Part shown: piece by piece, positions 4,245-18,030 of the stretch
Layout: each line of letters starts with the position of its first letter
How positions within the stretch are numbered: the first letter of the stretch is position 1
Origin: a virus
Strand: one strand, 5' to 3'
Virus genome (UHGV): UHGV-0392586
DNA length: 35,291 nucleotides
Translations under genes and position numbers: made by a program
Notes under the pieces: generated by a model
Told to the model about the DNA's origin: nothing
The model's input: only the letters and a program-made list of their open reading frames with translations
Database searches by the model: none

Positions 4245-4712
4245 ATGGCAAAAGGTAAATATCAAGAGTGGCTAGAGCCGGAAGGCTTGCTGAAGATAGA
4301 GGGATGGGCGAGAGATGGTCTGACGGATGAGCAGATTGCAGATAATATCGGAATTTCCAGAAGCACATTAAATAGCTGGAAAGACAAGTATTCGGACATT
4401 TCGGACACCCTAAAAAGAGGAAAAGAGGTCGTTGATCGTCAAGTTGAGAATGCTTTGCTAAAACGTGCGCTTGGATATGAGTACACGGAAACGACCAGAG
4501 AATATATACCGGAACTCGATGAAATGAAAACTACGAAAAAGGTCACAAAGCAAGTAGCACCGGACACGACAGCACAGATATTCTGGCTCAAGAACCGGAA
4601 ACCGGACAAATGGAGAGATAAGCAGGAATATGAAGATAGGACAGCGATTGAGAAGCTGGATGAAATCTTGAAAGGATTGCATGACAATGCAGCTAAGCAA
4701 AAAGCAGAATGA
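4245..4712 (+). CDS. terminase small subunit (HTH-containing TerS)
   Basis: MAKGKYQEWLEPEGLLKIEGWARDGLTDEQIADNIGISRSTLNSWKDKY typical Firmicutes-phage TerS N-terminus; RBS AAAGGTGGTGAG; directly upstream of TerL. Confidence 0.8.
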   Translation: MAKGKYQEWLEPEGLLKIEGWARDGLTDEQIADNIGISRSTLNSWKDKYSDISDTLKRGKEVVDRQVENALLKRALGYEYTETTREYIPELDEMKTTKKVTKQVAPDTTAQIFWLKNRKPDKWRDKQEYEDRTAIEKLDEILKGLHDNAAKQKAE

Positions 4713-6015
4713 GTACATAATGAGCGCAACTCATAGATGGAATATTAAATCTGGCGCGGTACGTTCCGGAAAGTCTTTTGTAGATACTGCTTATATCGTG
4801 CCTAAAAGAATCAGAGAAAGGGCCGGAAAGCCCGGATTGAACGTCATTATGGGAGTCTCAAAAGAGTCCATAGAGCGAAACGTGCTCCAACCGATGAGAG
4901 AAATCTATACCAGTGACCTGATCGGGAACATCAATAACCGGAATGTGGCAAGAGTATGCGGAGAGGATGTCTATTGTCTCGGTGCGGAAAAGGTCAGTCA
5001 AGTCGCAAAGATACAGGGAGCGTCCATCAAGTATTGTTACGGGGATGAGATTGCAAAGTGGAACAAAGAAGTCTTCCAGATGTTAAAGTCCCGTCTTGAT
5101 AAACCGTATTCCTGTTTTGATGGAGCTTGCAACCCAGAGCATCCAACGCATTGGCTCAAAGAATTCATTGACAATGTGGAGCTAGATATATATCTGCAAA
5201 AGTACACCATATTTGATAATCCATTCCTAAATCCTGGATTTGTTGAGGATCTCTGTAAAGAGTACGATGGGACAATCTACTATGACCGTCTCATTCTTGG
5301 ATTATGGAAAAGAGCTGACGGGTCGATCTACAAGCGGTTTGCAGACAATCCGGAAGCGTTCCGGTGCGAAATCGTGGATGTTCTCTCACAGGAATCAGAG
5401 CATAAGCAATTCCGAAAAGAGGATATCACATCAATCGAGATTGGATTGGACTTTGGTGGCAATCAATCCGGTCATTCATTCGTTGCCAGAGGGTATACGG
5501 ATAATTACAGAGATGTAATTGCGCTAAAATCCCGTAGAATTACGGCGAAAGATGAAAAAGAAGACATCGACAGCAATAGGTTGAATGAGTTGTTTTGCGA
5601 ATTTATCAGGGAAGTAATAGAACAATATTCGGTATGCGTGAAGAGCGGAGATTACGTGCAGTATTGCAACGTAGAATCCGTATTCTGGGACAATGCGGAG
5701 ACAGTACTTGGTAATTCCATCCGAAACGCCGTAGAAAAAGAGTTTCCGTGGATCGCTGTCAAACCGGCAAAGAAAAGACCAATCAACGACAGAATCAGAT
5801 GCACCGTCAAGCTCATGGGGGCTGGGCGGTTTTTTATTACAAAAGACTGCGAATCTCTGCAAACTGCTTTTTCGGATGCAGTTTGGGACAAAGAAGCTGT
5901 TGGGAAAGATGAGCGTCTGGACGATGGCAGCACTGATATTGACAGCTTGGATGCGTTCGAATATACAATCGAGCGCGATATGAAATACCTGATTGAAGAG
6001 GTGGAAGATGTTTGA
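4681..6015 (+). CDS. terminase large subunit (start ambiguous: 4681/4687/4720)
   Basis: Walker A-like SGAVRSGKS near N-terminus, ~440 aa, follows TerS, precedes portal. Confidence 0.85.
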   Translation: MTMQLSKKQNEYIMSATHRWNIKSGAVRSGKSFVDTAYIVPKRIRERAGKPGLNVIMGVSKESIERNVLQPMREIYTSDLIGNINNRNVARVCGEDVYCLGAEKVSQVAKIQGASIKYCYGDEIAKWNKEVFQMLKSRLDKPYSCFDGACNPEHPTHWLKEFIDNVELDIYLQKYTIFDNPFLNPGFVEDLCKEYDGTIYYDRLILGLWKRADGSIYKRFADNPEAFRCEIVDVLSQESEHKQFRKEDITSIEIGLDFGGNQSGHSFVARGYTDNYRDVIALKSRRITAKDEKEDIDSNRLNELFCEFIREVIEQYSVCVKSGDYVQYCNVESVFWDNAETVLGNSIRNAVEKEFPWIAVKPAKKRPINDRIRCTVKLMGAGRFFITKDCESLQTAFSDAVWDKEAVGKDERLDDGSTDIDSLDAFEYTIERDMKYLIEEVEDV

Positions 6016-7411
6016 TGGAATTAAGAGATTATGGAAAGGAATCATGAGGATGTTTGGGTATACAACATTAAAACAGATTATCGGCAAGGATATCGCACTA
6101 TCCAACGACATGATAGATGCAATCAATAGATGGAAACAAATGTTAAATGGGGATGCGGACTGGATTTCTGACAGCATTGTTTCCCTCGGGATTGAAGATG
6201 GAATCTGCCGAGAGTTTGCAGACTGTGCACTTGTGGAAATGGAAACTAATGTAAGTAATGAACGTCTGGACAAGATCTATCAGAAGAATATCACGAGTCT
6301 GAATGAAAACCTGCAGGAAGGCCTTGCTCTGGGGTCATTTGTTTTGAAACCACTGGGAGAATCGGTTGCCGAATTTATTTCAGCTGACAAGATTATCCCG
6401 ATTAGCTTCGGGGATGATGGAAAGCCGAATGATATTGCATTTTTGACCGTAAAAAAGGTTGGGGACGCTGATTATTTCACGAGACTTGAACGGCACTATT
6501 TTATTGACGGGAATCTGACCATAGAAAACAAGTGTTTTCACTCCCAGACAGCGAATGATATCGGTCTTCCGTGCAGCTTAGAAGCAGTGGGAGGGTGGGA
6601 AAATATCCTACCTGGACCGATTACATACCCCGGCATGAACCGAATGGACTTTGGGTATTACCGCAATCCAATTAAAAACAAGGTGGATGGTTCTTCCTGC
6701 GGTGTATCGGTATATGAATCTGCCGCTGAACTGATCCGGAAAGCGGATACACAGGGGGCAAGGCTTGACTGGGAATACGAATCGGGCGAGCGTGCAATAC
6801 ATGTTGACAACAGGGCTCTGAAACAAGACAAGGCAACCGGAAAACTTGGACTACCAAAACTCAAAAACAAATTGTATCGAGGAATGAATCTGGATGCTGG
6901 GAAATACCAAGAACTGTTAAAGGAATACTCCCCAGAAATGAGGGACGAAGCCTTTAAGCGCGGGTTGGAGGAATACAAGCGTGAGATTGAATTTTCCGTA
7001 GGTCTTGCTTATGGAGACCTGTCAGATGCGCAGGAAGTGGCAAAGACAGCCACGGAAATTAAAGCATCAAAGAACCGGAAGTACAACCGAGTGACGGCAA
7101 TTCAGAATAACTTATACGATTGCTTGGAAGACTTCGCTGCGGGACTTGCATTCTACAACAGTATGCTTAATTCGGGATATGAGTTCTCTTGCAAATTCAA
7201 CGATTCCATTCTGACCGATGAGGAAACAGAACGCCAGCAGGATAGACAGGACGTGAGTATGGGAGTGATGTCGCACTTGGAATACCGGATGAAATGGTAC
7301 AACGAGGATGAAGCCACAGCAAAGAAGATGCTGCCGGAACAGAACCAAGTTATAGACGATCAAATGTTTTCAGACTTAGGGGGGGGGCACAAGTACAAAG
7401 TAAAACATTAA
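5993..7411 (+). CDS. portal protein (start ambiguous 5993/6008/6044); ends in G9 homopolymer, possible -1 frame extension to 7560
   Basis: 472 aa, position between TerL and MuF-like minor head protein; see finding on G9 tract. Confidence 0.7.
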   Translation: MKRWKMFDGIKRLWKGIMRMFGYTTLKQIIGKDIALSNDMIDAINRWKQMLNGDADWISDSIVSLGIEDGICREFADCALVEMETNVSNERLDKIYQKNITSLNENLQEGLALGSFVLKPLGESVAEFISADKIIPISFGDDGKPNDIAFLTVKKVGDADYFTRLERHYFIDGNLTIENKCFHSQTANDIGLPCSLEAVGGWENILPGPITYPGMNRMDFGYYRNPIKNKVDGSSCGVSVYESAAELIRKADTQGARLDWEYESGERAIHVDNRALKQDKATGKLGLPKLKNKLYRGMNLDAGKYQELLKEYSPEMRDEAFKRGLEEYKREIEFSVGLAYGDLSDAQEVAKTATEIKASKNRKYNRVTAIQNNLYDCLEDFAAGLAFYNSMLNSGYEFSCKFNDSILTDEETERQQDRQDVSMGVMSHLEYRMKWYNEDEATAKKMLPEQNQVIDDQMFSDLGGGHKYKVKH

Positions 7412-7560
7412 ATGGTGCTCAAACACAAAGTCTTATTGCTATTATGTCTCAATACACAGCCGGAGAGCTGACAGAAGGGCAGGCGGTGAATTTGATCGCG
7501 ACAGCAATTGGAATCGAAAAAGACGAAGCAAGAAAAATCTTAGATGGAGAAGTGATCTAA

Positions 7561-8745
7561 TTGAGAGAAGACTACAAGAAACAACTATCCGGCCAGATTG
7601 AGAAGCATTTTCTGGATTTGGAGCATATGATTTTGGAGGACATTGTTCGCAGAATCAAAAAAGCCGGAAAAATCACAAGCACGGCAGACTGGCAGATCAA
7701 TAGACTACAGATTATCGGGTACTCTTCTGAGGACATCGAAAAGATGATAAAAACCGCGCTGAACCTATCCTATCCGGAAGTGTTTGAACTGTATGACAAG
7801 GTTATTGATTGGGAATATGTTCGTAACAAAGATATCTACGAACAGGTCAATGCGGAATATATCCCCTACGAGGATAATAAGGAGTTGCAACAGCTTGCAG
7901 ATGGCTTTATCCAGCAGAGCAATGAGGATCTGCGAATTGTCACAAAGTCCATGGGGTTTTATGTGGATTACGGCGGCGGTAGGCTTGTTATGACTCCATT
8001 ATCCGACATCTACCAAGGATATCTTGATGAGGCTATTACAGGCGTTGTTTACGGAGCATTTGATTATAATACCATGATTCGCAAGGTAGTTACTCAGCTC
8101 ACAAATAGCGGACTCAGGAGCATTGATTACGCTTCTGGGTGGCATAGCAGGGTAGACGTGGCGGCAAGGAGAGCGGTTATGACAGGAGTATCACAGCTTA
8201 CTGGGAAAATTGCAGAAATGAACGCCGAGAAGTTAGGAACAGAACATTTTGAGATTGCGTGGCACGCCGGAGCGAGACCATCACACGCCGTCTGGCAAGG
8301 CAAGGTGTGGAGCAAAAAAGAACTTGTTACGGTATGCGGTCTTGGAACAGCCACCGGACTACTTGGAGCAAACTGTTACCATGAGTATTACCCTTTTGTA
8401 AAGGGCGTGTCAGAGCGGAATTGGTCTGATTCTTGGCTTGCAGAGCAGAACCGCAAGGAAAGTATACCTAAGACATTTAACGGCAAGGAATACACCTTGT
8501 ACGAAGCCAGACAGCAACAGAGAAAAATGGAAACAGCTATGAGGGCGCAGAGAGAAAAGGCTGTGCTACTAAAACAAGGTGGAGCTGACCCAGATGATGT
8601 AATAATCGCGAAAGCAAAGTATCAAGGACAACTCGGGGAGTACACCAGATTTTGTAAACGAATGGGGCTGCATCAAGAGCGTGAGCGCATCTATTACGAT
8701 ATGCGCGGCAGAGTGGCACCTGTACCAAAACGATTTAGGAGGTAG
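7561..8745 (+). CDS. minor head protein, phage Mu F / SPP1 gp7-like head morphogenesis protein (TTG start)
   Basis: GWHSRVDVAARRAVMTG...HAGARPSHAVWQGKVW motifs characteristic of Phage_Mu_F domain; follows portal. Confidence 0.8.
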   Translation: MREDYKKQLSGQIEKHFLDLEHMILEDIVRRIKKAGKITSTADWQINRLQIIGYSSEDIEKMIKTALNLSYPEVFELYDKVIDWEYVRNKDIYEQVNAEYIPYEDNKELQQLADGFIQQSNEDLRIVTKSMGFYVDYGGGRLVMTPLSDIYQGYLDEAITGVVYGAFDYNTMIRKVVTQLTNSGLRSIDYASGWHSRVDVAARRAVMTGVSQLTGKIAEMNAEKLGTEHFEIAWHAGARPSHAVWQGKVWSKKELVTVCGLGTATGLLGANCYHEYYPFVKGVSERNWSDSWLAEQNRKESIPKTFNGKEYTLYEARQQQRKMETAMRAQREKAVLLKQGGADPDDVIIAKAKYQGQLGEYTRFCKRMGLHQERERIYYDMRGRVAPVPKRFRR

Positions 8746-8748
8746 AAA

Positions 8749-9030
8749 ATGAGCAAAGTAAAAGTAATCAGACAGCCAACAGCGGAAGCAACATTGATTT
8801 TTGAATTTGAGACAGCATCATCCGAATTTCTGGTTAAGAATTTTACGGATGGTGATGTGTATGCATCACTTGAAAAAGATGCGACAAAAGAGCAGAGCGT
8901 ACTGATTCCAGCACAGACAGCACAAAGATTGCAGTATGGCTCTTACGGCGGTGGGAAGAGCAACATCGTCCAAATCATCCCCACAGCAACCTCAGAAAAA
9001 GGAGTGGAAGTACAATGCTTAAAATGGTAG
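8749..9030 (+). CDS. hypothetical phage head-module protein (93 aa)
   Basis: AGGAGG RBS, 3-nt spacing after previous stop. Confidence 0.55.
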   Translation: MSKVKVIRQPTAEATLIFEFETASSEFLVKNFTDGDVYASLEKDATKEQSVLIPAQTAQRLQYGSYGGGKSNIVQIIPTATSEKGVEVQCLKW

Positions 9031-10526
9031 ACGGAACAGGAATCATAGGAGTGGATATGATCTGTCCTCTGGGAGTCTCCACTCCACAGCCACCGAATTA
9101 TGACAGGGTAGAGCTAGAGGGTACAGGGATGCTGGTACTTCCGAACAGCTTGGATGCGCCGCTTGAGAGGTTGGAGCTGGGTGGGAAGACGGAGCAGGTG
9201 CAGACTACTGGAAAAAATCTTGCTAATCCGAGTGAGTTCGTGGTTGGTACTCTTGCAGGAGATACTGGTAATATTATCAAACTAAAACAATACATTACCA
9301 CTGGGTATATCCCTGTTATTCCGGGCAAAAGGTATTCCACTAGCTGCGGAAACAAATTTTCAGCGCATACAATAATTGCATACGATAAAGAAAAGACAAA
9401 AATCAATTCTCCGATAAATATGTCTTCAGAAATGCCAGAAGGTGCAGCTTACATAAGATTGACATACAAGAAAATAGACATGACCAATGTTACAGAATCC
9501 GATATGGAAGAACTGAAAAAAGTTTGCATGGTAAATGAAGGCTCTACCGTTCTGCCTTACGAACCCTACACAGGCGGTAAACCCTCCCCATCACCCGAAT
9601 ATCAGCAGGAGATTAAGAGTGTCGGAAAATGGAATGAAGAGAAGCAGAAGTATGAAGTTAGTGTGAAAGTTACTGGGAAGAATCTACTCAATCTGCAAAA
9701 AGAATCAGATGTAAACGGGCTTTATCGAGGTTGGAAATGCGGGGATGGCGAAAAAATAACATTAAGTATTAAAGACAAAAACAATAATGCAGATATTTCA
9801 GGATGCTTCTTGGGACTTTCCAAAAATGGTGATTCGGCATCTGGAGGTGTTTTATGGTTAGTTGATTCTGGTATAATTAAAGTAAAAGAGGCAACATCCA
9901 CACATCCGTATGTAACCATATATTCTACAACTGAAACAACTATAAAAAAACTTACAGAACGATTTGAGATACAATGCGAACGAGGAACTGTCGCTACAGA
10001 TTATGCACCATACGCCGAACAAACCCTCACCCTCACATCCGACCGCCCACTCACAAAGTGGGACAGACTGGTAGAGCAGGGTGGAGAGATTGGGTGGCTG
10101 TATGGGAGCGTGATAGCAACAATTGATGAAACCGCTAGTATTTCTTTGTATGCGCCCAACGGATTCTATGTTTACGTCAAAAATATTGACAAGAAAGAAA
10201 AAACTGGATATTGCGACAAGTTGTATGCAAAGAGAATGTCGAACGGGGAACCATTTGTCTTATTCGGGAATGCCAATAATAATGGGCTTTATACGCTTAA
10301 CACTCAAGAGTTTTACGGGAAAACAGTTTCGGAAATCAAAGAAAAATTGAAAGAATACCCACTCAATATTATCGGAAAATCAGAAACCACCGAATTCGTC
10401 CCACTCCCACAATCCGAACAAAACGCTATCCGAGCATTAAAAGCCTACTACCCTACCACAGTCATCACAGTTGACGGAGGGGAGCTTGACCCTGATATTA
10501 AAGTAACATACCGAAAGGAGAAGTAA
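9015..10526 (+). CDS. hypothetical virion-associated protein (503 aa) in head module; recurring TGKNL and YxPY motifs
   Basis: AAAGGAG RBS; large ORF between MuF-like protein and scaffold, an unusual position. Confidence 0.6.
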   Translation: MLKMVDGTGIIGVDMICPLGVSTPQPPNYDRVELEGTGMLVLPNSLDAPLERLELGGKTEQVQTTGKNLANPSEFVVGTLAGDTGNIIKLKQYITTGYIPVIPGKRYSTSCGNKFSAHTIIAYDKEKTKINSPINMSSEMPEGAAYIRLTYKKIDMTNVTESDMEELKKVCMVNEGSTVLPYEPYTGGKPSPSPEYQQEIKSVGKWNEEKQKYEVSVKVTGKNLLNLQKESDVNGLYRGWKCGDGEKITLSIKDKNNNADISGCFLGLSKNGDSASGGVLWLVDSGIIKVKEATSTHPYVTIYSTTETTIKKLTERFEIQCERGTVATDYAPYAEQTLTLTSDRPLTKWDRLVEQGGEIGWLYGSVIATIDETASISLYAPNGFYVYVKNIDKKEKTGYCDKLYAKRMSNGEPFVLFGNANNNGLYTLNTQEFYGKTVSEIKEKLKEYPLNIIGKSETTEFVPLPQSEQNAIRALKAYYPTTVITVDGGELDPDIKVTYRKEK

Positions 10527-13997: not shown

Positions 13998-14525
13998 ATG
14001 GCAGAGAAAAAGCCTGAATTAGTTGGACGCCACAAACGGGTGGCATACATGAACACGGACGCTACCGGAAGTTCGCCAAAATTCGAACGCATGACGAATT
14101 TTACAACCATGACAAATGGGAAAAACCCAAAAGAGTATTCCAGACAGTACGTGGATGAGATCGCGGAGCGTGCAGACGTTGTGGGGTACGCGCCGGCAAT
14201 TGAATATTCGTTTGACCGGTACACAAACAACCCGGTACACGAAAAAATCGCAACAATCCACGATGGTGAAAAACTTGGAGATGACGCACATGTAGAGGTT
14301 GTAGTTGTCGATTTCTTCAAGAAAAGTGACAATGGCGATAAGTGTTACGCTACAAAAAGAACCTATGCGGTTATCCCGGATTCTGACGGAGATGGAACGG
14401 ATGCGCTTGTGTATAGCGGATCTCTTAAATCTGTATCCGACATCGAGGAAGGATACGTTACAGAAACCGATTTTACAAGCAAGACGGTTACTTACACAAA
14501 AGGTGATTACGCAGCAACTAAATGA
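13998..14525 (+). CDS. major tail protein
   Basis: RBS ACAGGAGG then ATG 13998; ~175 aa, located before the chaperone pair and tape measure. Confidence 0.7.
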   Translation: MAEKKPELVGRHKRVAYMNTDATGSSPKFERMTNFTTMTNGKNPKEYSRQYVDEIAERADVVGYAPAIEYSFDRYTNNPVHEKIATIHDGEKLGDDAHVEVVVVDFFKKSDNGDKCYATKRTYAVIPDSDGDGTDALVYSGSLKSVSDIEEGYVTETDFTSKTVTYTKGDYAATK

Positions 14526-14545
14526 AAGAAAAGGAGAGTGAGCCA

Positions 14546-14911
14546 ATGAGCCAGTGGAAATGGAATGACGTAGAGCTTGAAATCGATATGGACGATGTAG
14601 AGTTTTTGGAAAGGTATGAAAAAGTATTTGAAAACATCGAGCCGAGGGAGAAGAAGCTTGAAAAGGTTGGAAAAATATCCGAAATAACCAGAGAATATTG
14701 TTTGCTGTTTTATGATATTTTTGATGGGATTTTCGGAGAAGGTACTTCTGAAAAACTTTTTGACGGGAAAATGAATTTAAGAGTTTGCGAAGAGTGCTAT
14801 GATTCGTTCATTGCTGTATGTGAAAAAGAAATCAATGCCGTAAACAAGAGAAGAAATTCTGTTGTTAGCAAATATACTCCGAATAGAGCTCAGAGACGCG
14901 CAAAGAAATAA
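14546..14911 (+). CDS. tail assembly chaperone (G-like)
   Basis: Acidic ~120-aa protein between major tail and TMP; RBS AAGGAG. Confidence 0.65.
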   Translation: MSQWKWNDVELEIDMDDVEFLERYEKVFENIEPREKKLEKVGKISEITREYCLLFYDIFDGIFGEGTSEKLFDGKMNLRVCEECYDSFIAVCEKEINAVNKRRNSVVSKYTPNRAQRRAKK

Positions 14912-14912
14912 C

Positions 14913-15485
14913 ATGAATTTTTTCTACGAAGAGTTGCCAAACACGGTAAATGTGAAAGGTGAAAACATCAAGGTCATTACGGATTTCCGTGAATACATCA
15001 GGCTTTTGGATATGTTAAAAGACCAAGAGCTTGATGCTCTTCAAAAATTTGCGATCATACAGCAGTATTTTCTTGATGACATAGTCGCAGACGAAGAAGC
15101 TATAGGCGCATTGTCCTGCTTTATAACGATGGATACAAATTGCGTAGAGGTTGCGGAGACAGGTGATTGTGGGAGACCACAAGAAAAGCCGAAGAAAAAT
15201 TTGTTCTCGTACTCCATTGATTATCCATATATATTATCCGGCTTTCTCAGGGATTATGGGATTGATTTAATCGACATTAAATATATGCACTGGTGGAAAT
15301 TCAGGATGCTTTTCGATGGTCTGTCTGACGATACAGAAATCAAGCAGCGAATAATGTACCGCAGCGTTGATTTATCGGAAATCAAAGACAAAGAAGAGAG
15401 AAAACGAATTAAAAAGATCCAGAAATCAATTCAATTGCCATCTGAGAGTCTGACGGATTATGATATCGGAAACGCTTTCATGTGA
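14913..15485 (+). CDS. second tail assembly chaperone (GT-like / Gp15-like); starts 1 nt after stop of upstream chaperone (TAAcATG), open frame extends upstream to 14862
   Basis: Position and overlap geometry typical of G/GT pair; no SD in front of ATG 14913. Confidence 0.6.
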   Translation: MNFFYEELPNTVNVKGENIKVITDFREYIRLLDMLKDQELDALQKFAIIQQYFLDDIVADEEAIGALSCFITMDTNCVEVAETGDCGRPQEKPKKNLFSYSIDYPYILSGFLRDYGIDLIDIKYMHWWKFRMLFDGLSDDTEIKQRIMYRSVDLSEIKDKEERKRIKKIQKSIQLPSESLTDYDIGNAFM

Positions 15486-15699: not shown

Positions 15700-18030
15700 A
15701 TGGGTTACGATGGCTCATTAAAATTTAACACAAAAATAAACGAATCCGGATTCAATTCAGGAATTTCCAAACTTGGCAGTGTTGCAAGTGGTGGATTGAA
15801 AGTGATTGCCGGATCAGTAGCTGGCGTTGCCGCAGCATTTGGGGCAGTGTCTAAAATGTCTCTTGATTCCGTTGCAAGCTTGGAACAGAACATAGGCGGT
15901 GTTGAGACGCTGTTTAGAGATAGCGCGCAGACAGTGATCGATAACGCGAACAATGCGTATAAGACAGCTGGTGTATCTGCAAATAAGTACATGGAAACAG
16001 TGACAAGCTTCTCGGCATCTCTTTTACAGGGACTTGGAAATAATACCGCAGAAGCCGCCAGAATCGCAGATATGGCGATGGTGGATATGTCTGATAATGC
16101 CAATAAATTTGGTTCAAATATGACAGATATCCAAAACGCTTATCAGGGATTTGCGAAACAGAACTACACCATGCTTGACAACTTAAAACTCGGATACGGC
16201 GGGACGCAAGCTGAAATGATTCGCTTGATTAACGACAGCGGCATTCTCAACGAAAAAATAGAGAATCTTGACAATGTGTCGTTCGACCAGATCATTCAGG
16301 CAATCCACAAGATTCAAGAAAATATGGGTATTGCCGGAACGACAAGCGCAGAAGCATTAACTACCATAGAGGGCTCTGTACAATCCGCAAAAGCAGCATT
16401 TGACAACTTTTTGAATGGTTCAAGTTCCCCACAGGAGTTGGCAGATGCTGTAAAGTCCGCAGCTGAAAATATAACAAATAATTTGATGCAGATCGTCCCA
16501 AGACTTGCAAAAGAACTCCCAGAAGTCGGAAACCTGTTGATGGAAAGTCTTTCGCAGTCACTTAACTCCGGAAAACTCGGAGAAATGATGCAGATAGGTG
16601 GACAAGTCATTTCCAACATAACAACGGGAATTATACAAGCATTGCCCGGAATTGTGACTGCATCAGCACAGATTATAAGTTCGTTTGCGGAAAATATTAG
16701 CACCAGCATACCGCAACTGTTGTCATCTGGAATTCAGATCATACAGGCAATAGTGAACGGAATGATGCAGATATTGCCGTCTGTTGGTTCGCTTGCAATC
16801 CAGCTTATTACAACTCTATATGAGCAGCTTACGTCACAAGGGCCAAGCTTGTTACAGCAAGGATATGAATTGTTGAGTAATCTGATTGATGGATTCGTAC
16901 AGGCGATTCCAGAAGCGTTGCCGAAAGTGCTTGATTTTATTCAAGGGATCGGTGAAAAACTTGCAGAAGCAGCTCCTGTAATGATTCAAAAAGGATTCGA
17001 GTTGCTACAGAAATTGGTAGAAGGAATTGTGAGTGCAATACCGATTTTGATTGAGCGAGTTCCAGAAATTATTTCGACATTTGCAAACATCATTAATGAT
17101 AATTTCCCAACAATCCTAATGAAGGGTGCTGAATTACTTGGACAGTTGGCACTCGGACTTATTCAGGCAATACCAACTCTGATTGCAAACATTCCGCAGA
17201 TTATAGCAGCTATTGTTGACGTGCTGATGGCGTTCCAGTGGTTAAACCTTGGCAAGAGTATAATTAAGTTCTTGGGTGATGGCATTACATCTATGGTCGG
17301 GTTTGTTAAAACAGCCGGTACTAATATATTAAACGGAATTAAAGGCTCTATTCAGAATCTACCTTCAACGCTTGCTAATATAGGAAAGTCTGCTATTCAC
17401 AATCTCGGGAGTACAATAAGCGGGATGGTGTCTTATGTGAAAACTGCCGCTCTAAAAATCGCGTCCGGAATTGAATCTGCAATTCTTACGCTGCCTGGTA
17501 AGATGGCATCAATCGGAAGCAATATTGTGCAGGGGTTGTGGAACGGAATATCCAACATGACTGGTTGGATTATTGACAAGATTGGAGGATTCGCAAGCAG
17601 TGTTGTTTCGTCCATCAAAGATTTCTTCGGCATACATTCCCCATCCAGAGTTATGCGAGACCAAGTCGGGAAATACCTTGCAATGGGCGTAGGTGTTGGA
17701 TACGAAAAGTATATGCCGTACAAAGAGATGAAAAAAGTATCCGGTAAGGTGGTGTCTCAGTTGTCTGCATCTGTGAGCGGTATAACGTTATCAGTGCCGG
17801 AAAGTGCTGGAAGTCAAACTTACCAGAAAAGCGTTGGAATCCGGAAGTCTGAAAATAACAACGAGCTACTCTATGCAGTAGACCGTCTATCCAGACTTGC
17901 CAACAGACCACTAGAGATTGTTAATAAAATTGACTCTGTAGAGACATCCAGAGTACTTGCAACACCAATGGAAAAACAAATAGAAAAGAATTCTAGTTTT
18001 CGGAAGATGTTAGGAGGGGATAGAAATTGA
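15700..18030 (+). CDS. tail tape measure protein
   Basis: 776-aa, Ala/Gly/Ile/Leu-rich repetitive helical protein after chaperones; RBS GGAGGG. Confidence 0.9.
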   Translation: MGYDGSLKFNTKINESGFNSGISKLGSVASGGLKVIAGSVAGVAAAFGAVSKMSLDSVASLEQNIGGVETLFRDSAQTVIDNANNAYKTAGVSANKYMETVTSFSASLLQGLGNNTAEAARIADMAMVDMSDNANKFGSNMTDIQNAYQGFAKQNYTMLDNLKLGYGGTQAEMIRLINDSGILNEKIENLDNVSFDQIIQAIHKIQENMGIAGTTSAEALTTIEGSVQSAKAAFDNFLNGSSSPQELADAVKSAAENITNNLMQIVPRLAKELPEVGNLLMESLSQSLNSGKLGEMMQIGGQVISNITTGIIQALPGIVTASAQIISSFAENISTSIPQLLSSGIQIIQAIVNGMMQILPSVGSLAIQLITTLYEQLTSQGPSLLQQGYELLSNLIDGFVQAIPEALPKVLDFIQGIGEKLAEAAPVMIQKGFELLQKLVEGIVSAIPILIERVPEIISTFANIINDNFPTILMKGAELLGQLALGLIQAIPTLIANIPQIIAAIVDVLMAFQWLNLGKSIIKFLGDGITSMVGFVKTAGTNILNGIKGSIQNLPSTLANIGKSAIHNLGSTISGMVSYVKTAALKIASGIESAILTLPGKMASIGSNIVQGLWNGISNMTGWIIDKIGGFASSVVSSIKDFFGIHSPSRVMRDQVGKYLAMGVGVGYEKYMPYKEMKKVSGKVVSQLSASVSGITLSVPESAGSQTYQKSVGIRKSENNNELLYAVDRLSRLANRPLEIVNKIDSVETSRVLATPMEKQIEKNSSFRKMLGGDRN

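What the first reader, a model, noticed from the sequence alone, without database searches (positions are those of the whole stretch)
7379..7560. G9 homopolymer at portal 3' end with a -1 frame that stays open for 57 codons and ends exactly at the next gene start
Positions 7379-7387 are nine consecutive G (three Gly codons). In the annotated frame the portal stops 8 codons later (HKYKVKH*), leaving a 150-bp apparently non-coding gap in an otherwise tightly packed module. The -1 frame from the G-tract reads ...GGAQVQSKTLNGAQTQSLIAIMSQYTAGELTEGQAVNLIATAIGIEKDEARKILDGEVI* and terminates at 7558-7560, abutting the TTG start of the MuF-like gene at 7561. Possible explanations are a programmed -1 ribosomal slip giving two portal isoforms, a phase-variable tract, or a homopolymer length error where the true tract is G10 or G7. 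A 38-aa ORF from ATG 7444 is another possibility.
Basis: seen in the sequence. Interest (0 to 1): 0.65.

Follow-up and report, generated by a model that had tools for sequence, protein, structure and literature searches.

The report
Variable poly-G switch in portal gene
A run of nine G's in this gut phage's portal gene knocks a small, conserved end-domain of the portal protein out of frame, and because the run differs in length (G6 to G10) between otherwise identical relatives, it most likely acts as a slippery on/off switch rather than a one-off error.

Summary
G9 lies at 7379-7387. The portal frame stops eight codons later, and the -1 frame stays open to TAA 7558-7560, directly before the TTG of the MuF-like gene.

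The -1 frame encodes a real portal domain, a confidently predicted three-helix bundle. It is fused in frame to the portal in close relatives (G7, G10) and in many distant portals that have no G run.

Tract length is hypervariable.
- The window's lineage shows G6 to G10.
- Three contigs with zero mismatches over 1.4-2.4 kb carry G7, G9 and G10.
- The tract is the only frame-breaking indel in about 4 kb of coding DNA.
- The domain's reading frame is intact and under purifying selection in every out-of-frame contig.

A census of 80 viral loci carrying this domain found 24 with the domain out of frame. All 24 have a G run at the junction, in at least 12 linker lineages, and both the -1 and the +1 offset occur.

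Best reading: a hypermutable poly-G contingency tract toggles an optional portal C-terminal domain, and the window is in an OFF length. A dedicated -1 ribosomal frameshift signal is not supported. An assembly error in this particular window, or low-level recoding on the G run, cannot be excluded.

The parts
6008..7411 (+). Portal gene as read with G9 (OFF state). It gives a 467-aa A118-type portal ending ...DDQMFSDLGGGHKYKVKH*. The mechanical ORF starts at TTG 5993.
   Evidence: phrog_533 portal protein, E=5e-114. Homologues are named 'A118 family predicted phage portal protein'. Homologues start at MFDG and overlap the terminase stop by 8 nt.
7379..7387 (+). G9 homopolymer, the hypervariable tract at the boundary between portal body/linker and C-terminal domain. 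In-frame lengths are G7 and G10.
   Evidence: Relatives carry G6, G7, G8, G9 and G10. Zero-mismatch contigs L008, L009 and L017 carry G7, G9 and G10.
7387..7560 (+). C-terminal portal domain in the -1 frame: AQVQSK-TLNGAQTQSLIAIMSQYTAGELTEGQAVNLIATAIGIEKDEARKILDGEVI*. It is a three-helix bundle, not joined to the portal in this sequence.
   Evidence: Fused in frame in P0001/L002, P0002/L003 and others. Always at the extreme C-terminus of its proteins. AF2 pLDDT 87.5, three helices. 13 synonymous versus 1 non-synonymous polymorphic codons.
7357..7547 (+). Segment (linker, G tract and domain) that is absent from the common 450-aa portal alleles such as Ruminococcus phage RG-TP1. It is 191 nt here and 189 nt (63 codons) with G7.
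   Evidence: Alignment A1, RG-TP1 annotation, and 118 of the 120 best homologues being 436-452 aa.
7561..8745 (+). MuF-like minor capsid protein 2 gene. Its TTG start directly follows the domain's TAA. The same abutting or overlapping arrangement is seen in all related lineages.
   Evidence: PF06152, E=3.7e-118. Gene tables of L002, L003, L019, L022 and L032.

Best explanation
The G9 run is a hypermutable simple-sequence tract (a contingency locus). It sits exactly at the linker between the portal body and an optional, conserved 52-aa three-helix C-terminal domain. Strand slippage during DNA replication adds or removes G's. G7 and G10 give a 516/517-aa portal carrying the domain (ON). G6, G8 and G9 terminate 5-8 codons after the tract (OFF). 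The OFF product is roughly equivalent to the domain-less 450-aa alleles that dominate this portal family. The window is in an OFF length.

Shown: the tract, the two frames, in-frame fusion in relatives, length polymorphism on identical backgrounds, an intact and selected domain ORF, and recurrence of the architecture across lineages.

Inferred: that the polymorphism arises by replication slippage at high rate and is reversible; that the domain lies inside the capsid on the portal crown, by analogy with the topology I recall for SPP1, P22 and HK97-type portals; and that switching changes virion properties. Because the domain's stop abuts the MuF-like start, switching may also change translational coupling to that gene.
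For: 1. In-frame fusion. P0001 (516 aa, 90% identical, G7) and P0002 (518 aa, G7CGG) carry the domain in frame. SPP1-type portals in L007 and L012, and 56 of 80 viral loci, have it fused, mostly without a G run.
2. Tract lengths. The window's lineage has G6 x2, G7 x5, G8 x1, G9 x2 and G10 x1. A sister lineage has G7 x2 and G9 x1.
3. Identical backgrounds. L008 (G7), L009 (G9) and L017 (G10) have 0 mismatches over 1376-2438 nt and differ only at the tract. In a second lineage the tract is the only indel between 98-99.5% identical genomes carrying G6, G7 or G8.
4. Specificity. The tract is the only frame-breaking indel across terminase, portal and MuF coding DNA at about 10% divergence.
5. Selection on the domain. 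Its ORF is intact in all OFF contigs, with 13:1 and 14:2 synonymous to non-synonymous polymorphic codons.
6. Census. All 24 out-of-frame loci have a G run at the junction, against 5 of 56 fused loci (Fisher p=7e-16), in at least 12 linker lineages. G runs of 8 or more occur 35 times at the junction and once elsewhere in 627 kb.
7. Reproducible OFF lengths. P0224 (G8) is on 17 contigs, P0250 (G9) on 12 and P0198 (G8) on 5, from different projects and assemblers.
8. Locked variants. L040 (G5TG4) is fixed ON, and the 450-aa deletion alleles are fixed OFF.
Against: No reads are available, so within-population heterogeneity, the switching rate and reversibility are not shown. Assembly consensus at long G runs can be wrong. 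Among IMG/VR loci with an uninterrupted G run of 6 or more, only 4 of 26 are in frame (P=0.036 against 1/3, samples not independent). This fits drift toward short stable tracts, but also fits a scheme in which OFF is the norm and the domain is made by recoding. No phenotype is known for the domain: it has no Pfam, PHROG or PDB assignment.
Confidence: 0.6

Rival explanations
1. Homopolymer length error in this particular assembly. The true tract would be G7 or G10, and the phage simply encodes a 516/517-aa portal with the domain.
For: The nearest in-frame relatives have G7 or G10 with otherwise near-identical flanks. The domain ORF is perfectly intact. Long G runs are error-prone on several platforms (general knowledge).
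Against: G9 is also found in L009, an independent and different strain, and in L016. OFF lengths recur on 5-17 independent contigs per lineage from different assemblers and in two loci whose IMG ids look like isolate-genome taxon ids (L043, L090; my inference from the id format). No other homopolymer indels occur in coding DNA of the compared contigs.
Confidence: 0.15
2. Programmed recoding. The out-of-frame arrangement would be the normal genotype, and a fraction of ribosomes (-1 on G_GGG_GGG here) or of RNA polymerases (adding or dropping G's) slips on the run. The phage would then make mostly short portal plus some long portal.
For: G_GGG_GGG formally fits the X_XXY_YYZ pattern in the portal frame. 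OFF genotypes are the majority among loci with long G runs (22 of 26), yet the domain stays under purifying selection. In several loci the domain frame is closed by a stop right before the tract, so no independent start is possible (L050, L052, L061 and others). Low-level frameshifting on a G string is documented for herpes simplex thymidine kinase (PMC5009743).
Against: There is no downstream RNA structure beyond chance (z=0.53 and 0.61). The required shift differs between loci: -1 in 16 and +1 in 7 of the 24 split viral loci (my tally; one locus untallied), and +1 in the P0198, P0224 and P0250 lineages. Tract length varies within a lineage, and the same strain occurs in frame. As I recall it, programmed transcriptional slippage in bacteria uses A/T runs, so a G run would be unusual.
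Confidence: 0.15
3. Plain decay. The domain would be dispensable, the G9 frameshift a fixed neutral inactivating mutation, and the downstream ORF a young pseudogene remnant.
For: 118 of the 120 closest portal homologues lack the whole segment, including cultured phage RG-TP1, so loss is tolerated.
Against: All OFF contigs in several diverged lineages keep a stop-free domain frame while the other two frames carry 2-4 stops. Changes are about 13:1 synonymous. OFF and ON alternate on identical backgrounds. Poly-G is maintained specifically at this site.
Confidence: 0.1

Closest known systems
Hypermutable poly-G tracts in Campylobacter phage genes (Sorensen et al. 2021, Cell Rep 35:109214; cited in PMC12823448)
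   Same: A phage-encoded G homopolymer inside a structural-gene coding region, whose length changes switch the reading frame and create subpopulations.
   Different: As I recall that paper, which I did not read here, the tracts lie in receptor-binding or tail genes of lytic Campylobacter phages and change host recognition. Here the tract is in the portal gene of temperate Firmicutes gut phages. It toggles only a C-terminal add-on domain expected to face the capsid interior, and the rest of the protein stays functional.
Contingency loci in coliphages T2/T4 (Gomez, Barrick, Waters 2025 preprint, PMC12633550)
   Same: Homopolymer repeats of 6 or more in phage ORFs give reversible frameshifts by polymerase slippage, and are said to occur in every functional gene class.
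   Different: The demonstrated cases named in the section headings of the outline, agt and rIIA, are not virion structural genes. Searching the paper for 'portal' and 'C-terminal' found no occurrence. Here the site is conserved positionally across many diverged lineages.
Herpes simplex virus thymidine kinase G-string (G7 +/- 1) with compensatory frameshifting (reviewed in PMC5009743)
   Same: An indel in a run of G's puts the downstream part out of frame, and low-level frameshifting on the G run still yields some full-length product.
   Different: That is a eukaryotic virus under drug selection with a single gene. No evidence for recoding was obtainable here.
Programmed frameshifts giving C-terminally extended phage structural proteins (T7 10A/10B; Listeria phages A118/PSA capsid and tail proteins; tail chaperone G/GT). 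From my own knowledge, not checked here.
   Same: Two isoforms of a virion protein that differ by a C-terminal extension encoded in another frame.
   Different: Those sites are fixed in sequence and direction and conserved among relatives. Here relatives are in frame or shifted the other way, and no stimulatory element was found.

Membership tests
Simple-sequence contingency locus (phase-variable homopolymer) | Homopolymer tract of about 7 or more within or next to a coding region | tested here: met
   G9 at 7379-7387 inside the portal ORF.
Simple-sequence contingency locus (phase-variable homopolymer) | Tract-length polymorphism among otherwise identical or near-identical genomes | tested here: met
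   L008 (G7), L009 (G9) and L017 (G10) have 0 mismatches over 1.4-2.4 kb. G6, G7 and G8 occur among 98-99.5% identical genomes.
Simple-sequence contingency locus (phase-variable homopolymer) | Length changes switch the downstream coding sequence in and out of frame, and it stays intact in OFF states | tested here: met
   G7 and G10 are fused. G6, G8 and G9 stop within 5-8 codons. The domain ORF is intact in all OFF contigs, with 13:1 and 14:2 synonymous to non-synonymous codons.
Simple-sequence contingency locus (phase-variable homopolymer) | High, reversible switching rate within a clonal population, seen as read-level heterogeneity | not testable with these tools
   No reads or cultures are available.
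Simple-sequence contingency locus (phase-variable homopolymer) | A phenotypic difference between ON and OFF states | not testable with these tools
   The domain's function is unknown. It has no Pfam, PHROG or PDB match.
Programmed -1 ribosomal frameshift site | Slippery heptamer X_XXY_YYZ in the zero frame | tested here: met
   G_GGG_GGG is in register with the portal frame. This is a formal fit only, because every long homopolymer fits.
Programmed -1 ribosomal frameshift site | Downstream stimulatory hairpin or pseudoknot | tested here: not met
   Folding 7379-7500 gives z=0.53, and 137 of 200 shuffles fold at least as well.
Programmed -1 ribosomal frameshift site | The same out-of-frame arrangement and shift direction conserved in relatives | tested here: not met
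   The closest relatives are in frame. Other lineages need +1.
Programmed transcriptional slippage | Long homopolymer, typically an A or T run of 9 or more in bacteria (typical-run criterion from my own knowledge, not checked here), with the gene's functional product encoded trans-frame | tested here: inconclusive
   The run length is adequate (G9), but the base is G. The trans-frame arrangement is frequent but not fixed. RNA data are unavailable.
A118-type phage portal protein (phrog_533) | Full-length profile match, and position between the terminase large subunit and the MuF-like gene | tested here: met
   phrog_533 at E=5e-114 over residues 6-456. TerL lies upstream (PF03237) and PF06152 downstream.

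The most novel reading that the evidence does not exclude
The poly-G run could be a conserved dual-use recoding site rather than a simple mutational switch. On this reading, out-of-frame genotypes are the norm across a dozen or more gut-phage lineages. Slippage of the ribosome or RNA polymerase on the G run, in either direction, would then make a sub-stoichiometric fraction of domain-bearing subunits. That fraction would set the number of C-terminal three-helix modules per portal dodecamer, and through termination next to the MuF-like start it would also set the dose of the minor capsid protein.
Probability: 0.15. Interest if true: 0.8.

Novelty: new member of a known kind. Interest (0 to 1): 0.6.

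Why it matters
Portals are among the most conserved and least 'negotiable' virion parts. Known phage switches (invertible segments, DGRs, Campylobacter-phage poly-G tracts) act on receptor-binding proteins.

A mutable tract that adds or removes a conserved domain on the portal would extend bet-hedging to the head interior and the packaging or ejection machinery. It recurs in at least 12 linker lineages, spanning both A118-like and SPP1-type (PF05133) portals, most of them from uncultured phage contigs. That would point to a functional trade-off for this uncharacterised three-helix domain.

There is also a practical consequence. Gene callers split these portals into 'portal + small hypothetical ORF' (for example P0198, P0224, P0250), and catalogues may treat them as frameshift errors.

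Tried and rejected
- **Database matches for the domain.** Pfam and PHROGs searches of the 60-aa extension, and a PDB sequence search, gave nothing.
- **Short-query homologue searches.** A 50-aa query of the OFF tail returned only fragments and was uninformative for a census. The 129-aa query was biased towards short proteins, but it did reveal the split-ORF lineages.
- **Genome-contig scan.** The DNA pattern gave only two hits (L011, L012). L011 was a chance match; L012 is a distant SPP1-type portal carrying the domain fused.
- **RNA structure.** Nothing beyond shuffles was found downstream of the tract or around the MuF start. A frameshift stimulator and a coupling hairpin are therefore both unsupported.
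- **Cultured phages.** INPHARED holds no close homologue of the domain. Only 34-36% matches were found, inside the portal genes of Streptococcus phage Javan383 and a Vibrio phage.
- **Fold search.** No significant PDB match. The homeodomain-like three-helix hits at E about 0.5 are not evidence of DNA binding.
- **38-aa ORF from ATG 7444.** Rejected, because it starts inside helix 1 of the domain and the sequence just upstream shows no purine-rich ribosome-binding site.
- **Independent small gene.** Rejected as a general explanation. In several loci a stop codon lies immediately before the tract in the domain's frame.
- **Literature.** Searches found no report of a poly-G or frameshifted portal C-terminal domain.

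Full report
**1. The observation**

Positions 7379-7387 are nine G's. This is the only G/C homopolymer of 6 or more in the window and its longest homopolymer of any base.

In the portal frame the sequence reads TTA GGG GGG GGG CAC AAG TAC AAA GTA AAA CAT TAA, so the protein ends ...SDLGGGHKYKVKH* at 7411. The -1 frame reads ...RGGAQVQSKTLNGAQTQSLIAIMSQYTAGELTEGQAVNLIATAIGIEKDEARKILDGEVI* and stops at 7558-7560. The next base starts the TTG of a Phage_min_cap2 (PF06152, MuF-like) gene.

The upstream gene is a portal (phrog_533, E=5e-114). It lies in a temperate siphovirus genome with this order:
- terS, terL, portal, MuF-like gene, scaffold, major head protein;
- tape measure protein, Dit, tail fibre/host-specificity (Tal-like) protein, endolysin;
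- a large integrase (phrog_95; second match to phrog_125 DNA invertase, which suggests a serine recombinase) on the minus strand.

Homologues begin at MFDG..., so the true portal start is probably ATG 6008.

GGG is 19% of Gly codons here, so three GGG in a row has p of about 0.007.

**2. The open -1 frame is a real portal domain**

The closest cultured relative is Ruminococcus (Mediterraneibacter gnavus) phage RG-TP1, about 90% identical in DNA. It has a 450-aa portal and lacks the whole segment 7357-7547. Its portal stop lies 9 nt before the MuF-like TTG. The segment is 191 nt here, which would be 189 nt or 63 codons with G7.

Of the 120 best protein homologues, 118 are this short form. P0001 (516 aa, 90% identical) and P0002 (518 aa) carry the extension fused in frame. 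Their DNA shows TTA-G7-CAC and AAT-G7-CGG.

The same 'K[TS]LNGAQTQSLI...' module sits at the extreme C-terminus of unrelated SPP1-type portals that have no G run (L007, L012). A scan of 1.84 billion representatives finds it only at the C-terminal end, either of proteins of about 470-590 aa or of short ORFs.

AlphaFold predicts a three-helix bundle with pLDDT 87.5. Foldseek gives no significant PDB match. The best viral-model matches include portals of several families (target lengths 452-719 aa), at TM 0.65-0.73 but with non-significant E-values. Distant tblastn matches also fall inside annotated portal genes.

The domain has no Pfam, PHROG or PDB assignment.

**3. The tract is hypervariable**

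Pattern scans of viral, metagenome and genome collections, together with protein-based look-ups, gave these contigs of the window's lineage:

| Tract length | Contigs | State |
|---|---|---|
| G6 | L006, L015 | OFF |
| G7 | L002, L005, L008, L013, L014 | ON |
| G8 | L010 | OFF |
| G9 | window, L009 | OFF |
| G10 | L017 | ON |

Three further variants belong to the same picture.
- L040 has an interrupted tract (G5TG4) and is fused.
- L043 has G7 with the adjacent C missing and is out of frame.
- The sister lineage has G7 (L003, L004) and G9 (L016).

L008 (G7), L009 (G9) and L017 (G10) show zero mismatches over 1376-2438 nt and differ only at the tract.

Across about 4 kb of terminase, portal and MuF coding DNA at roughly 10% divergence, the tract is the only frame-breaking indel. 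There is therefore no sign of general homopolymer error in these contigs.

The 52-codon domain frame is intact in every out-of-frame contig. Its polymorphisms are 13 synonymous to 1 non-synonymous.

**4. The architecture recurs widely**

Short ORFs P0198, P0224 and P0250 led to three further lineages with different linkers and with portals of either PF05133 or A118 type. In each, a G8 or G9 run lies at the junction and the domain is in the +1 frame. They were found on 5, 17 and 12 contigs from different projects and assemblers.

For a census unbiased with respect to frame, I searched viral contigs with an alignment of the domain, which gave 80 loci.
- 56 loci have the domain fused, and most of these have no G run.
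- 24 loci have it out of frame.
- Every one of those 24 has a G run (G5-G10) exactly at the frame junction.
- Only 5 of the 56 fused loci have a comparable G run (4 uninterrupted G7 plus L048, G6CG4; Fisher p=7e-16).
- At least 12 distinct linker lineages are involved.
- By my tally, 16 of the 24 have the domain in the -1 frame and 7 in the +1 frame; one was not tallied.

In one well-sampled lineage ('QVRQDDGG-AEVQGK') the lengths are G6 x5, G7 x2, G8 x1 and G9 x1. The tract is the only indel between 98-99.5% identical genomes, and the domain shows 14 synonymous to 2 non-synonymous codons.

In 627 kb of fetched loci, G/C runs of 8 or more occur 35 times at this junction and once elsewhere.

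**5. Mechanism**

The data fit a hypermutable poly-G contingency tract at a domain boundary. Replication slippage changes the G count. G7 and G10 give a portal with the domain, and other lengths stop 5-8 codons later.

Because domain-less alleles dominate this portal family, OFF products should still assemble. That would explain why OFF genotypes are common. Rapid and reversible toggling would explain why the domain remains intact and selected.

The pooled length distribution peaks at G6-G7 in both well-sampled lineages, whichever of the two is in frame. This looks like mutational dynamics, with shorter tracts being more stable, rather than selection for one frame.

A dedicated -1 ribosomal frameshift is not supported, for three reasons.
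- No stimulatory structure is present.
- Relatives are in frame.
- Other lineages need the opposite shift.

Three things cannot be excluded.
- **An error in this window.** This needs reads to settle.
- **Low-level slippage on the G run that supplies some long portal from OFF genotypes.** Two observations leave room for it. Only 4 of 26 loci with an uninterrupted G run of 6 or more are in frame (P=0.036 against 1/3, samples not independent). Frameshifting on a G string is also documented for HSV thymidine kinase (PMC5009743).
- **Simple decay.** The selection data argue against this.

Two further points are inference only.
- The domain probably faces the capsid interior on the portal crown. This rests on my recollection of solved SPP1, P22 and HK97-type portals.
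- Its stop always abuts the MuF-like start. ON and OFF states might therefore also alter translational coupling to that gene, or docking of its product.

**6. Comparison with what is known**

Phage poly-G phase variation is known for Campylobacter phages (Sorensen 2021, cited in PMC12823448). As I recall that paper, which I did not read here, the tracts lie in receptor-binding genes. A 2025 preprint describes homopolymer contingency loci in T2 and T4 and predicts them in all gene classes (PMC12633550).

Neither source, nor my other literature searches, describes a portal case or a positionally conserved tract that toggles a C-terminal domain.

I therefore file this as a new member of a known kind (phage contingency loci), with an unusual target. 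Full membership still lacks read-level evidence of switching and a phenotype.

**7. Verdict**

- Interest is 0.6.

Noticed in passing
window 7357-7547 vs L001 (RG-TP1) 4362-4363: The whole linker, G-tract and domain segment is a clean presence/absence polymorphism. In most relatives it is flanked by a short direct repeat ATGGA (ATAGA on the left side in the window), which suggests deletion between repeats produced the common 450-aa portal allele.
   Followed up: partly
window 9212-10385 (ORF 9015-10526, 503 aa): The gene between the MuF-like gene and the scaffold gene is poorly conserved or replaced in all relatives, while both flanks stay about 90% identical. It has only a weak match to phrog_11541 of unknown function. 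It looks like a swappable cassette inside the head module.
   Followed up: partly
window 7561-8745 vs L002 4552-6255, L003, L022, L032: The MuF-like minor capsid gene downstream of the domain varies greatly in length: 394 aa here, 560-584 aa in L002, L003 and L022, and 790 aa with intein and PBECR2 hits in L032. This suggests variable C-terminal cargo domains.
   Followed up: no
window 8746: There is a single-base indel polymorphism among relatives in the 3-nt spacer between the MuF-like stop (8745) and the next ATG (8749). It is the only other recurrent 1-nt indel in this block, and it is intergenic.
   Followed up: no
window 14522-14911 and 14862-15485: Two overlapping ORFs lie immediately upstream of the tape measure gene (15700-18030), which is the usual place for the tail assembly chaperone programmed frameshift. 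No obvious slippery heptamer was seen in a quick look at 14840-14930.
   Followed up: partly
window 5993-6015: The mechanical portal ORF starts at TTG 5993, but homologues start at the ATG at 6008 (MFDG...). That start overlaps the terminase large-subunit stop by 8 nt, as in L002 and L003.
   Followed up: yes
L046 vs L048 (viral contigs): In another lineage the tract is interrupted. G5CG4 is out of frame and G6CG4 is in frame, so a one-G difference still toggles the domain. L040 (G5TG4) looks like a stabilised ON allele of the window's own lineage.
   Followed up: partly
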